DNA from: a virus
Taxonomy: Duplodnaviria > Heunggongvirae > Uroviricota > Caudoviricetes
DNA: 34,970 nucleotides
IMG/VR virus record: IMGVR_UViG_2529292908_000012
Strand: one strand, 5' to 3'
Shown: positions 26,332-31,484 of the stretch, one piece after another
Numbering within the stretch: the first letter of the stretch is position 1
How the letters are laid out: each line of letters begins with the position of its first letter
The notes under the pieces: generated by a model
Told to the model about the DNA's origin: nothing
Databases searched by the model: none
The model's input: the letters and a program-made list of their open reading frames with translations, nothing else
Program-made: the position numbers and the translations under genes

Positions 26332-26625
26332 TTAATTACACAGTCGCATATCCTGAAGTAACACATCTATAGCTAACTTCACAGCGAGATCATCCAATTC
26401 ATCATGGTGAAGCACTCGGATCATTCCCGCAATAGCATCTGCTGAAATAGCTTCCCCAGTAGCAATAACCTCAAGCAACGACACCCCTAGAATTTCGACT
26501 ACCCGCTGGTGCAACACACCAAATTCCCCTTCGATTAACATGCAATCACCCATAACAATCAGCCTTTCCCCCTTGAAAATATCACGCGGATACCACAAAA
26601 ATAAAATATTTTTGTTATCAGTCAT
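26332..26625 (-). CDS. 97-aa hypothetical protein, convergent with cI, in the cI-N interval
   Basis: ORF occupying the position where lambda carries rexAB, but on the opposite strand; no family recognised. Confidence 0.5.
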   Translation of the reverse strand: MTDNKNILFLWYPRDIFKGERLIVMGDCMLIEGEFGVLHQRVVEILGVSLLEVIATGEAISADAIAGMIRVLHHDELDDLAVKLAIDVLLQDMRLCN

Positions 26626-26671
26626 TTATAACGTTTTTCATAAAATGATAAATATAGTTATTGCACAACCA

Positions 26672-26687
26672 GATAACTTAGGTTATC
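26672..26687. promoter_or_regulatory. OL-like operator palindrome GATAAC-TTAG-GTTATC upstream of N
   Basis: Perfect 6-bp inverted repeat with the same ATAAC/GTTAT half-sites as the cro-cI interval. Confidence 0.5.
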
Positions 26688-26733
26688 TTCAATTCAACAG
26701 CAGGACGCTGGAAGCCAAACGGAACAGATTGGC

Positions 26734-26775
26734 CGGCTCTTTAACATTGATGGACTCTCAACCTAACCGTTGAGA
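26734..26775 (+). promoter_or_regulatory. Candidate nutL (boxA-like CGGCTCTTTAA plus boxB hairpin tctcaac-ctaacc-gttgaga)
   Basis: boxA-like sequence about 11 nt upstream of a 7-bp stem / 6-nt loop hairpin, about 110 nt upstream of N. Confidence 0.5.
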
Positions 26776-26885
26776 CCAAAATCTAAGTGGTTTTGGGGAT
26801 GACGCGAATTTCAGTTGCAAGGCCGCGATCGAGAAGAAAAACACCTCGACGCGTCATACACCAAAGCCACTTAAAGGAGACCATC

Positions 26886-27191
26886 ATGGTAACCATAATC
26901 TGGAAAGAATCCAAAGGTACGGCAAAAAGCCGCTATAAAGCTCGCAGGGAAGAACTTATTGCAGAGCGGCGCAGTAGTGAAAGACTGACACGGAAGATTG
27001 CGCTAAAGATCTCTGGTTGCGTCGGAGCAGACAAAGCAGTATCACTCGGAAGCCTTCGCTGCAAGAAGGCAGAAGAAGTCGAGAGTAAACAGAACCGTAT
27101 TTACTACCGCAAACCACGCAGTGAAATGGGTGTGACTTGCTCAGGCCGCCAGAAACAACGCGGAAAATCAATTCCGGCTTATTACGATTGA
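26886..27191 (+). CDS. N: N-like transcription antiterminator
   Basis: Arg-rich N-terminus (SRYKARREELIAERR) and C-terminal YRKPRSEMGVTCSGRQKQRGKSIP resembling lambda N (..YSKPGERGITCSGRQKIKGKSIP) as recalled; SD aaggag 7 nt upstream. Confidence 0.75.
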   Translation: MVTIIWKESKGTAKSRYKARREELIAERRSSERLTRKIALKISGCVGADKAVSLGSLRCKKAEEVESKQNRIYYRKPRSEMGVTCSGRQKQRGKSIPAYYD

Positions 27192-29411: not shown

Positions 29412-31484
29412 ATGAGCGCTGATAAACAGACTTTTGCACTACACTGCGAAGCAAAAAACGATAAAGTCAGAAAACGCCTTGGCATCAAAGGCGGTTTTTT
29501 CTGGACCGAGGCCAGAAAACTTTCTGTCGCAGTTTCCCGCTGCATTGCAGCCATGGACGATGCAGGCTACGACGAGGATGATTTCAAAAAACCCGTTCGC
29601 GTAAATTTCCCCGTCGTGAATGACCTTCCACCGGAAGGCGTGTTTGATACTGAATTCTGCAACCGCTATGAAAAAGGCGGTAACGATGGCATCACCATGA
29701 TGGCTATCCCCTTCGATGACAACATCAACGGTGAAGATGCCACAACTGCTGGCGATGACAACGATAACCTGGACGGAACTATTCCGGATGATGTGGAGAA
29801 AAGCGAATCCCCGGACAGCGACGATGACTGTTCTGAGTGTGAAATTCCCGTCGCCACTCTGAGCCTTACTCATCGCTTCCTTCACCTCTTCTTATTCAGC
29901 AAAGATGAAGATGGAAAATACCGGCATCATGCCACACCAGAACAACGCAATAACGTGATCCGTATGGAGATGGACACAGAGGACAGTTACCTTCAGAGCC
30001 TGCTTACTGCTGTGCGCGCCGCGCATCATGAACTGGATAAACTGACGAACTATCACCTTAGTCGCCTGGCTGAATCTGTAGGGAAAGCATTCCCCCACTC
30101 TGCAAATCATCGCATCAGCCCGGCTGAATTCGACAAGTTCATTTCCACCTGGATGAAAACTGACTACCTTGATCAGGGCCTGCTGACAAAAGAATGGCAG
30201 AACGGAAATTATGTTTCAGGCATTACCCGTACGCCTTCCGGTGCTAACGCTGGCGGCGGAAATATTACCGATCGTGGTGAAGGATTCAAACATGATAAGA
30301 CATCACTCGCACGAGATGTAGCCACCGGCGTTCTGGCCCGTTCAATGGATGTGGATATTTATAACCTGCACCCAGCACACGCAAAACGCGTTGAAGAAAT
30401 CGTGTCAGAGAATAAGCCGCCCTTTTCTGTTTTTCGCGACAAATTTATCGCCATGCCCGGTGGGCTGGATTATTCCCGCGCCATTGTGGTGGCTTCCGTG
30501 AAAGAAGCACCAATCGGCATTGAGGCCATCCCGGCACGCGTGACTGAATATCTCAACAAAGTGTTGACCGAAACCGATCACGCTAACCCGGATCCGGAAA
30601 TCGTGGAAATTGCCTGCGGTCGCTCATCAGCACCGATGCCGCAGCGCGGAACAGCAGAAGGAAAACATGGCGATGAAGAAAAGCAACAAACATCGGACAC
30701 AATGGCTAATGAACAGGCAGCGCCTGAATCAGTGGAAGAAATTCCAGTTAAACATAATGAGGACACGCAATCACTGGAAAATGTCTCATCTGTAGAAACG
30801 AAATACCAGGAACTGAGGGAGGAACTCAATAAAGCCAGGGAAAACATCCCCCCAAAAAATCCAGTCGATGCCGACAAATTACTGGCTGCCTCGCGTGGAG
30901 AATTCGTTGAAGGCATCAGTAACCCTGCTGATCCGAAGTGGGTGAAGGGGATCCAGACTCGCGACACTGAGGACCAGAATCAGCCCAAAGTGGAACAAAT
31001 TGCCCCAGAAGCGGGACAAAACAGCCCGGATACGCAACAAAACGGGCCAGAAGAGCAACAGCCAGGGCCAGTAATGCAACAGGAAGTGGAAAAGGTTTGC
31101 ACCACATGCAGTCAGAACGGTGGCGGCCATTGCCCTGACTGTGGTCCAGTAATGGGAGATGAAACTTACGCTGAAACTTTTGGAGAAAATGACGCCGCTG
31201 ATGGAGAAGACTCAGCACAAACTGAGGAGAAGATCATTCAGGAAAACTCTGTTGATGCCGCTCAGGAGGGCGAAACCGTTGTTCAGAACGAGCCAGGCAG
31301 TGATACGTCCGGCGATGACGCCAATTCTGAGCCAGTAACTCTCGACTGGAAAAGACAGCTCGTGATTGCCGCCGTCTATGGTTTGTGCGCCAACCCCGCA
31401 TGTATAGCCACAGCGCCAGCAATCCCTGATATCGCCATCATGATTGCCAACAGGCTTGAAAATTTCGAAGGTGATAAATCATGA
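29412..31484 (+). CDS. 690-aa highly acidic protein with C4 zinc ribbon, translationally coupled to gam
   Basis: Long ORF; acidic tracts ([30 protein letters not shown]); [16 protein letters not shown] at aa 563-578 (nt 31098..31145); hydrophobic C-terminal segment; stop overlaps the gam ATG. Confidence 0.8.

What the first reader, a model, noticed from the sequence alone, without database searches (positions are those of the whole stretch)
26332..26625. Convergent 97-aa gene in the cI-N interval (rex-like position, opposite strand)
Lambda carries rexAB between cI and pL on the cI strand. Here a single 97-aa ORF lies on the opposite strand, separated from cI by a shared hairpin terminator (26301..26326). 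Genes in this slot are frequently lysogen-expressed exclusion or defence factors. I see no clear SD, so confidence in expression is moderate.
Basis: partly seen in the sequence, partly recalled or inferred. Interest (0 to 1): 0.5.

Follow-up and report, generated by a model that had tools for sequence, protein, structure and literature searches.

The report
Small AriR-like prophage accessory gene
The 97-codon reading frame is a rare one-base artefact around a real, widely conserved 69-codon prophage gene next to the early leftward promoter pL; its small acidic helical protein resembles bacterial "connector" proteins such as AriR/YcgZ, and its function has never been tested.

Summary
It runs 26541->26332 and encodes 69 aa.

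- **Rare extension.** The first 28 codons are in frame only because the window has T5 in a homopolymer where every relative examined has T6. The exact 97-aa product occurs on 3 public contigs; the 69-aa and 73-aa products occur on >=1000.
- **Conserved core.** Homologues of 65-69 aa (phrog_3946) start at the equivalent of M29 and have a stop 6-8 codons upstream (19 in one Klebsiella phage). dN/dS is 0.06-0.43.
- **Fixed position.** In 11 immunity regions of Escherichia, Salmonella, Klebsiella, Enterobacter and other genera the gene is divergent from pL/N and convergent on cI, sometimes with a moron such as BstA in between.
- **Own signals.** It has a conserved extended -10 promoter outside the operators, an SD, and a hairpin that travels with it. 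This is moron architecture.

I read it as a CI-independent accessory gene for a protein-binding modulator of host signalling. No defence model matches it. Function and expression in lysogens are untested. The finding is ordinary to moderately interesting.

The parts
26332..26541 (-). True CDS: 69 aa including the ATG at 26541-26539; stop TAA at 26334-26332. Acidic three-helix protein, phrog_3946 (WP_024166114.1).
   Evidence: PGAP call in FORC_069. phrog_3946 E 7.4e-30 over aa 30-94 of the 97-aa ORF. Homologue starts align here. dN/dS 0.06-0.43.
26542..26625 (-). Non-conserved 28-codon 5' extension that makes the 97-aa ORF. Probably untranslated, and largely upstream of the predicted transcription start.
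   Evidence: Out of frame in all relatives. The 97-aa product is on 3 contigs against >=1000 for the short forms. Three of four homologues checked have a stop 6-8 codons upstream of the start; the Klebsiella one has 19 open codons with only TTG candidates.
26597..26601 (.). Homopolymer run: T5 on the - strand here, T6 in every relative. This single-base difference creates the long ORF.
26545..26551 (-). Shine-Dalgarno GGGTGAT, 3 nt before the ATG at 26541. It overlaps the alternative ATG at 26553-26551 (the 73-aa call).
   Evidence: Read from the sequence. It aligns with the GAGGGA/GAGGAG SDs of homologues.
26576..26584 (-). Predicted extended -10 promoter element TGaTATTTT. The predicted start is about 26568-26570.
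   Evidence: TGn+NATNNT is conserved in register in 8 of 9 loci with different immunity regions; the Klebsiella locus has TGcTATTGT 6 nt upstream. Prediction only.
26599..26604 (-). Weak -35-like TTATTT inside the conserved A/T tract (26597-26610).
   Evidence: The tract is also kept in an O26 prophage that lacks the gene, so it belongs at least partly to the pL upstream region.
26304..26321 (.). Hairpin CCCGGC-N6-GCCGGG between the two convergent genes. Canonical terminator for cI (+); weak U tract for the small gene (-).
   Evidence: The same hairpin type follows the homologues in MG40 and L013, and is bidirectional only in L013.
26616..26628 (+). IHF-consensus match TATCAGTCATTTA with a 5' A-tract, about 70-100 bp upstream of pL.
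   Evidence: 3 matches in the window against 2.7 expected, so position only. Conserved in the O26 RM8426 prophage. Inference by analogy with lambda pL.
26628..26686 (.). OL operators of type ATAAC-N4-GTTAT: 26628-26641 (2 mismatches), 26648-26661 (1), 26673-26686 (0).
   Evidence: All 0-1 mismatch matches in the 35-kb window fall in OR (25397, 25422, 25446) or OL.
26661..26689 (+). Probable pL: -35 TTGCAC at 26661-26666, -10 TATCTT at 26684-26689. It is divergent from the small gene.
   Evidence: Read from the sequence. Homology to phage 21 nutL/N begins at about 26698.
25471..26178 (+). cI-type repressor, convergent partner.
   Evidence: Pfam Peptidase_S24 1.5e-17 and HTH_3; phrog_4.
26886..27191 (+). 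N antiterminator (phage-21 type), divergent partner.
   Evidence: phrog_271 E 7.6e-35. About 90% DNA identity to phage 21 N.

Best explanation
The feature is a 69-aa accessory (moron) gene, 26541->26332 on the - strand. It was inserted as a self-contained unit (extended -10 promoter, SD, CDS, hairpin) between the pL/OL control region and the end of the cI transcription unit.

Shown:
- It is a protein-coding gene under purifying selection.
- It keeps the same position beside pL across many lambdoid prophages of Enterobacteriaceae, whatever their immunity specificity, N type or neighbouring moron.
- It is dispensable, because a related immunity region lacks it.
- Its predicted fold is a three-helix protein whose best solved match is YmgB/AriR.

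Inferred:
- It is transcribed from its own sigma-70 extended -10 promoter. That promoter lies outside the CI operators, so the gene would be expressed in lysogens independently of CI.
- The very acidic product (net charge about -8; no HTH, no membrane segment, no catalytic motif) acts by binding a conserved host protein. AriR, YmgA and YcgZ work this way. They act as connectors on the Rcs phosphorelay, on SpoT, and on ompF expression.
- Through that binding it would shift the lysogen's envelope and stress physiology. The host target is not known.
For: Gene and start.
Purifying selection: dN/dS 0.06-0.43.
Synteny N <- pL | gene -> | (moron) <- cI holds in the window, L013, MG40, 118970_sal4, Klebsiella phi8.2 and five further genera.
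Dispensable and modular: the O26 RM8426 prophage has a related cI/OL but a different 98-aa gene in the slot, and homology resumes at 26596.
Promoter: the extended -10 is conserved in 8 of 9 loci although their operators differ. The operators lie at 26628-26686, 44 bp or more upstream of the -10.
Sequence: the family HMM ranks FumD, YcgZ, YdfK, YmgA and AriR as the five best non-family ORFs of 3661. All five align on the same helix-1 motif around the invariant Gly. hhalign gives 44% probability to YcgZ and 43% to YdfK.
Mechanism of the relatives: YmgB binds SpoT and activates Rcs (PMC10704370). YcgZ lowers ompF transcription (PMC5491885).
Distant family members sit at other moron sites, such as the tail-fibre end where ydfK sits in Qin.
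Against: - There is no expression data of any kind. The promoter is a prediction, and the generic sigma-70 scan found no - strand promoter.
- No member of the family reaches any Pfam model. PF10798 (YmgB) is never hit, and PF10965 is hit once at E 0.032.
- hhalign probabilities to AriR (2%) and FumD (9%) are low.
- Three-helix folds are common, and a first lower-confidence model gave no YmgB hit.
- The relatives themselves have diverse or unclear functions: FumD is annotated as a fumarase and YdfK as a cold-shock protein. Even true homology would not fix the target.
- The constant position beside pL could mean a phage-internal role.
Confidence: 0.4

Rival explanations
1. It is a lysogen-expressed superinfection-exclusion or defence factor that acts directly on incoming phages.
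For: The cI-N slot is a known site for rexAB, BstA and other morons (PMC7067206). BstA lies next to the homologue in MG40. The gene has moron architecture and is dispensable.
Against: No PADLOC model matches the window protein or its homologues. A 69-aa soluble acidic helical protein has no effector domain. The fold and motif point to connector proteins. Distant members sit on chromosomes away from prophages.
Confidence: 0.2
2. It is a phage-internal regulator of the lysis-lysogeny decision or of early leftward transcription. It would bind a host factor used by the phage (Lon, FtsH, IHF, Nus factors or RNA polymerase), which would explain its fixed place beside pL.
For: The gene is always immediately next to the pL/OL region, whereas variable morons lie on its cI side. 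An IHF-like site sits between it and pL. YcgZ is a Lon substrate (PMC5491885).
Against: Related phages with similar cI/OL lack it. It is conserved across different cI and N types, so it cannot be specific for either. Family members occur far from any immunity region.
Confidence: 0.15
3. It is an anti-defence protein, for example an acidic DNA mimic against restriction or RecBCD. It would be made immediately on DNA entry from a repressor-independent promoter.
For: Strong net negative charge (about -8 here, about -11 in Salmonella homologues, counted from the sequences). Small size. A promoter outside the operators. Lambdoid phages keep their anti-restriction (ral) and anti-RecBCD (gam) genes in the leftward pL operon, beyond N (general knowledge).
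Against: The best structural match is not a DNA mimic, and BFVD gives no match. The acidic residues are not the most conserved positions; the invariant or nearly invariant columns are mostly hydrophobic. Chromosomal and tail-fibre-end relatives fit cargo genes better.
Confidence: 0.12
4. The 97-aa ORF as drawn (26625->26332) is the gene.
For: It is open in this window and starts with ATG. The exact product is on 3 public contigs.
Against: There is no SD. It is out of frame in all relatives. The extension is not conserved. The ATG lies upstream of the conserved promoter element.
Confidence: 0.02
5. The coding frame is incidental. What matters is convergent or antisense transcription towards cI, or the DNA is only part of the pL control region.
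For: The hairpin is a weak terminator on the - strand, so read-through into antisense cI is conceivable. The A/T tract and IHF-like site belong to the pL upstream region.
Against: Synonymous sites are saturated while dN stays low, with dN/dS 0.06-0.43. Start, SD and stop are conserved. No Rfam match.
Confidence: 0.03

Closest known systems
YmgB/AriR, YcgZ and YmgA of the E. coli ycgZ-ymgABC operon (two-component-system connector proteins; Pfam PF10798 for AriR and YcgZ; PDB 2OXL)
   Different: No member reaches the Pfam YmgB model, and identity is 13-19%. The phage protein is shorter, lacking the N-terminal 15-25 residues, and far more acidic. It is a single gene beside pL rather than part of a BluR-controlled operon. 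The SpoT-contact residue R74 of YmgB was not checked for a counterpart. Targets are untested.
YdfK / YnaE (cold shock proteins of the cryptic prophages Qin and Rac)
   Same: Prophage-borne small proteins of similar size (77 aa). hhalign gives 43% probability over 56 aligned columns, nearly the full length and in register. YdfK is third among non-family HMM hits. The distant family member P0166 occupies the same kind of site, after tail-fibre genes, as ydfK does in Qin.
   Different: They sit at the tail-fibre end, not in the immunity region. They have no Pfam family of their own in this copy. The function of YdfK is unknown too, so the resemblance does not give a mechanism.
DUF2767 / FumD (YdhZ), Pfam PF10965
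   Same: Same size (about 70 aa), same taxa and same helix-1 motif. It is the best non-family HMM hit (E 0.0043 in 3661 ORFs). The distant member P0155 hits PF10965 at E 0.032 and lies 630 nt from a fumD gene. One homologue cluster is named DUF2767 by UniRef.
   Different: The window protein and 26 of 27 aligned members do not hit PF10965. hhalign probability is 9%. FumD is basic to neutral and chromosomal, and is annotated as a fumarase.
Morons of the cI-N interval: lambda rexAB, HK022 nun, BTP1 bstA
   Same: Same slot between repressor and N. Dispensable and swapped between related phages (PMC7067206).
   Different: Those genes lie on the cI strand and are co-transcribed with cI. This gene is on the opposite strand with its own promoter, always abuts pL, and can coexist with them (MG40 has both BstA and the homologue). 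No sequence or model similarity.

Membership tests
phrog_3946 (phage protein family of unknown function) | Significant match to the family HMM over its full length | tested here: met
   E 7.4e-30, profile positions 2-67 of 67, aa 30-94 of the 97-aa ORF.
phrog_3946 lineage as defined here (65-69 aa genes beside pL) | Position: divergent from pL/N and convergent on the cI unit | tested here: met
   Same arrangement in the window and in 10 further immunity regions from six or more genera.
YmgB/AriR family (Pfam PF10798) | Match to the Pfam model at or above the gathering score | tested here: not met
   No hit at E<=10 for the window protein or any of 27 members. AriR and YcgZ themselves do hit it.
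YmgB/AriR family (Pfam PF10798) | Three-helix YmgB fold (PDB 2OXL) | tested here: met
YmgB/AriR family (Pfam PF10798) | Detectable sequence relationship (profile level) | tested here: inconclusive
   The family HMM puts YcgZ, YmgA and AriR at ranks 2, 4 and 5 of 3661 background ORFs, but with E 0.0084-0.73. hhalign probabilities are 44%, 14% and 2%.
YmgB/AriR family (Pfam PF10798) | Head-to-head dimer; binding to SpoT and activation of the Rcs phosphorelay | not testable with these tools
   Needs two-hybrid or pull-down assays, cps reporter and ppGpp assays (features from PMC10704370).
DUF2767 / FumD (Pfam PF10965) | Match to the Pfam model at or above the gathering score (20.7 bits) | tested here: not met
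   The window protein has no hit. Only P0155 matches, at 14.7 bits and E 0.032. hhalign probability is 9%.
Prophage moron (accessory transcription unit) | Present or absent between otherwise related phages; dispensable | tested here: met
   The O26 RM8426 prophage has related cro/cI/OL but another gene in the slot; homology resumes at 26596.
Prophage moron (accessory transcription unit) | Own promoter and terminator | tested here: inconclusive
   A conserved extended -10 and a hairpin that travels with the gene. Both are predictions, and the hairpin's U tract on the gene's strand is weak in this window.
Prophage moron (accessory transcription unit) | Expressed in the lysogen | not testable with these tools
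   No transcriptome of a lysogen carrying this gene was found.
Known anti-phage defence systems (PADLOC-DB v2) | Match to any defence protein model | tested here: not met
   No family at E<=10 for the 97-aa form, the 69-aa form or three homologues.

The most novel reading that the evidence does not exclude
Lambdoid prophages of E. coli, Shigella, Salmonella, Klebsiella and relatives carry, beside pL, a dedicated repressor-independent AriR/YcgZ-like connector. In the lysogen it would plug into host signalling (Rcs phosphorelay, SpoT/ppGpp or porin control). The prophage would then reset capsule, porin and stress status, and with them phage-receptor exposure and host fitness. Classical EHEC O157:H7 and Salmonella are reported to lack the chromosomal bluR-bluF-ycgZ-ymgAB unit (PMC3509220), so there the phage copy would supply a missing type of regulator.
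Probability: 0.2. Interest if true: 0.6.

Novelty: new member of a known kind. Interest (0 to 1): 0.33.

Why it matters
The gene itself is already in the databases as a "hypothetical protein" (WP_024166114.1, phrog_3946). Its exact sequence is on at least 1000 contigs of E. coli and Shigella, including Stx-converting prophages, and its family is common in Salmonella and Klebsiella prophages.

This analysis adds four things:
- the correct gene model;
- the rule that the gene always sits back-to-back with pL, whatever the immunity type;
- a conserved repressor-independent promoter signal;
- a first structural and sequence link to the AriR/YcgZ/YmgA/YdfK group of small enterobacterial regulators.

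If the link holds, a very widespread prophage gene becomes a testable candidate for lysogenic conversion of envelope and stress signalling in pathogens. If it does not, this remains one more small orphan moron.

Tried and rejected
**Searches that gave nothing useful**
- Pfam, NCBIfam and PADLOC scans of the window protein and its homologues gave no meaningful hit.
- A profile search of PDB sequences found only chance USP28 matches at E about 0.6.
- Foldseek against BFVD found nothing at E<0.9. The afdb50 library was not available.
- tblastn of AriR against phage genomes found no match.
- Rfam has no family in 26150-26950.

**A wrong recollection**
- I recalled that YdfK is DUF2767. That was wrong: YdfK hits no Pfam model, and DUF2767 is FumD/YdhZ.

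**Literature**
- There is nothing on WP_024166114 or DUF2767.
- The PA28 paper predicts OL1-3, but its table is not among the held supplements.
- The BTP1 transcriptome paper covers the slot but not this gene.
- Papers on ydfK/ynaE give no mechanism.

**Rejected ideas**
- A PRM-like promoter activated by CI at OL2 or OL3. The spacing to the conserved -10 does not fit (my reading).
- The generic sigma-70 scan finds no - strand promoter, because the -35 is poor.
- The IHF consensus is not enriched in the window. Only its position and its conservation are suggestive.

Full report
**1. What is in the window**

The region is the immunity region of a lambdoid, Stx-phage-type prophage.
- It is 99% identical over 2 kb to Escherichia phages PA28 and 06-3462 (Traversvirus) and to several Stx1a-converting phages.
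- It is 99.9% identical to a prophage of E. coli FORC_069.
- The layout is: a cro-like gene at 25136-25360(-), a cI-type repressor at 25471-26178(+), the ORF in question, the OL/pL region, and a phage-21-type N gene at 26886-27191(+).
- The operators are ATAAC-N4-GTTAT palindromes. There are three in OR (25397, 25422, 25446) and three in OL (26628 weak, 26648, 26673). Every 0-1 mismatch match in the 35-kb window falls in these two clusters.
- pL is most plausibly TTGCAC (26661-26666) plus TATCTT (26684-26689). Homology to phage 21 begins just downstream, at about 26698.

**2. The observation**

The 97-aa ORF at 26332-26625(-) exists, and so does the hairpin at 26304-26321. The hairpin is a textbook terminator for cI, with the tail UUUUAUUU. 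On the ORF's own strand the stem is followed by GGGAUUUAG, so it is a weak terminator there.

The 97-codon frame is not the gene.
- An alignment with phage 06-3462 shows one extra T in the relatives' homopolymer: T6 against T5 at 26597-26601.
- In 06-3462, FORC_069 and OkiPb01684 the ATG at 26625 therefore opens only 14 codons.
- IMG/VR holds 14 contigs with the T6 form and none with T5.
- The exact 97-aa product is on 3 short public contigs. The 69-aa and 73-aa products of the same locus are on at least 1000 contigs each, in E. coli and Shigella.
- PGAP annotates 69 aa (WP_024166114.1, start 26541). A Geneious-based annotation gives 73 aa (start 26553).
- phrog_3946, a 67-position profile, covers aa 30-94.
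- In distant homologues the start aligns with M29. Three of the four checked have an in-frame stop 6-8 codons upstream and no alternative start. The Klebsiella one has 19 open codons with only TTG candidates.
- The ATG at 26541 is preceded by GGGTGAT, which aligns with the GAGGGA/GAGGAG Shine-Dalgarno sequences of the homologues.

**3. It is a real gene with a fixed address**

*Family size.* A search with the Salmonella homologue found 437 relatives, all "hypothetical", in Salmonella, Klebsiella, Enterobacter, Citrobacter and related genera. A profile search of 1.84 billion cluster representatives found only 62 clusters. The family is narrow and enterobacterial.

*Selection.* Pairwise dN/dS is 0.06-0.43 where synonymous sites are not saturated, so the protein is under selection.

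*Position.* The arrangement is the same in every immunity region examined: N <- pL/OL | gene -> | <- cI.
- The window and metagenomic contig L013 have nothing in between.
- The P22-like Salmonella phages MG40 and 118970_sal4 and a Klebsiella phage have one cI-strand moron in between.
- So do prophages of Enterobacter, Scandinavium, Trabulsiella, Pluralibacter and K. grimontii.
- In MG40 the intervening gene is BstA (PADLOC E 1.7e-124).
- The small gene always abuts pL. The variable cargo lies on its cI side.

*Dispensability.* An O26 prophage with a related cro/cI/OL region carries a 98-aa gene on the cI strand instead. Its homology to the window resumes exactly at 26596.

*Other sites.* More distant family members lie at other cargo sites. 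P0166 lies after tail-fibre genes, as ydfK does in Qin. P0155 lies on a chromosome 630 nt from a fumD gene.

**4. Expression signals (predicted)**

Upstream regions were anchored at the start codon. Eight of nine loci then share TGn plus a -10-like hexamer in the same register. Examples are TGaTATTTT here, at 26584-26576, and TGaGATACT, TGcCATACT and TGcTATGCT elsewhere. The ninth locus has TGcTATGTT-type TGcTATTGT 6 nt upstream.
- This is an extended -10 promoter with a poor -35 (TTATTT in an A/T tract). That explains why the generic scan missed it.
- The predicted start is about 26568-26570, which gives a leader of about 28 nt. It places ATG 26625 upstream of the transcript.
- The element is conserved although the operators of these phages differ. 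In the window the nearest operator ends 44 bp upstream of the -10. I therefore infer CI-independent transcription.
- The A/T tract and an IHF-consensus site (26616-26628) are kept in the O26 prophage that lacks the gene. They probably belong to the pL upstream region, as in lambda.
- The CCCGGC-N6-GCCGGG hairpin follows the gene in the window, MG40 and L013. It is bidirectional only in L013.
- Promoter, CDS and hairpin together look like a classical moron cassette. I found no transcriptome for any lysogen carrying the gene.

**5. What the protein looks like**

- It has 69 aa and a net charge of about -8; Salmonella homologues are about -11. It has no membrane segment, HTH or metal motif.
- With a diverse 27-sequence alignment AlphaFold gives a confident three-helix model: pLDDT 87.4, pTM 0.73, helices 3-28, 34-44 and 52-62.
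- Predicted viral structures gave nothing.
- At sequence level no member reaches the Pfam models YmgB (PF10798) or DUF2767 (PF10965). One distant member hits the latter at E 0.032.
- The five best non-family ORFs were FumD (E 0.0043), YcgZ (0.0084), YdfK (0.027), YmgA (0.14) and AriR (0.73). One truncated family pseudogene and then noise followed.
- All five align to the same segment, a helix-1 motif hhLGxAVxxhh...(S/N)xxxh around the family's invariant glycine.
- hhalign gives 44% probability to YcgZ, 43% to YdfK over nearly full length, 14% to YmgA, 9% to FumD and 2% to AriR.

I read this as probable but unproven remote homology. The wider group would be small enterobacterial helical proteins that includes the AriR/YcgZ/YmgA connectors and the prophage protein YdfK.

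**6. Mechanism**

The characterised relatives act through protein-protein contacts.
- YmgB/AriR forms a head-to-head dimer, activates the Rcs phosphorelay (mucoidy) and binds the TGS/helical region of SpoT to raise ppGpp (PMC10704370).
- YcgZ lowers ompF transcription and is a Lon substrate (PMC5491885).
- The chromosomal locus has been suggested to be of phage origin, and is reported absent from Salmonella and classical O157:H7 (PMC3509220).

My best-supported reading is that this is a repressor-independent accessory gene. Its acidic product would bind a conserved host signalling protein and shift the lysogen's envelope and stress physiology. The gene model, conservation, synteny, dispensability and fold prediction are shown. 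The promoter, expression in lysogens, protein-binding mode and target are inferred.

Four rivals remain open:
- a direct exclusion or defence factor, which the slot favours but no model supports;
- a phage-internal regulator, which would explain the constant place beside pL;
- an early anti-defence DNA mimic, which the charge favours but the fold does not;
- a purely transcriptional role, which dN/dS argues against.

**7. Verdict**

- **Observation:** partly confirmed. The ORF and hairpin are real, but the ORF boundaries are wrong because of a rare one-base allele.
- **Interpretation:** partly supported. This is a moron in the rex slot, but the defence role is unsupported.
- **Novelty:** the gene family is already catalogued as hypothetical. 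The corrected model, the positional rule and the AriR-like link are new but modest. I class it as a new member of a known kind, with interest of about 0.33.

Noticed in passing
window 20321-20495 (-) and 18531-18757 (-): Rfam matches above the gathering score: sok antitoxin RNA (RF01794, 110 bits), which implies a hok/sok-type module in the prophage, and sRNA STnc100 (RF02076, 78 bits).
   Followed up: no
window 26481-26487 (-): The window reads GGGGTGT inside the small CDS, whereas 06-3462 and OkiPb01684 read GGGGGGG (V->G and S->A). Two 70-aa gene calls from Logan assemblies (P0004, P0005) start in another frame and join the C-terminal part just after this run. This could be assembly error or slippage at a G7 tract.
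   Followed up: partly
L002 (Salmonella phage MG40) 2761-3684 (-): The 307-aa 'hypothetical protein' between cI and the 67-aa homologue is BstA (PADLOC E 1.7e-124). A known abortive-infection gene and the small gene can therefore share the slot.
   Followed up: yes
window 26597-26628: An A/T tract plus an IHF-consensus site TATCAGTCATTTA lies about 70-100 bp upstream of pL. It is conserved in an O26 prophage that lacks the small gene and resembles the IHF site upstream of lambda pL. The T5/T6 indel lies in this tract.
   Followed up: partly
L020 (E. coli O26 RM8426 prophage) 2061-2357 (+): A related immunity region carries a different 98-aa gene on the cI strand in the same slot. It has no PADLOC hit.
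   Followed up: partly
window 25446-25473: The operator nearest cI (25446-25459) is only 11 bp from the cI ATG (25471), and there is no SD at a usable distance. The PRM transcript may be leaderless, as in lambda.
   Followed up: no
L016 4001-5048: The distant family member P0155 lies on a chromosome, not in a prophage, 630 nt upstream of a fumD (DUF2767) gene. It is the only member with a sub-threshold PF10965 hit. It may be a paralogous pair that bridges the two families.
   Followed up: partly
window 29412-31484 (+): A 690-aa, very acidic, low-complexity ORF lies in the pL operon, downstream of N.
   Followed up: no
window 23387-24708 (-): A peptide-level repeat QPQQPEAD...PGPS recurs in the 360-aa ORF and in the short ORFs upstream of it. 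TRF finds a 16-nt unit repeated 2.1 times at 24556-24588. This may be iteron-like DNA near the replication genes.
   Followed up: partly
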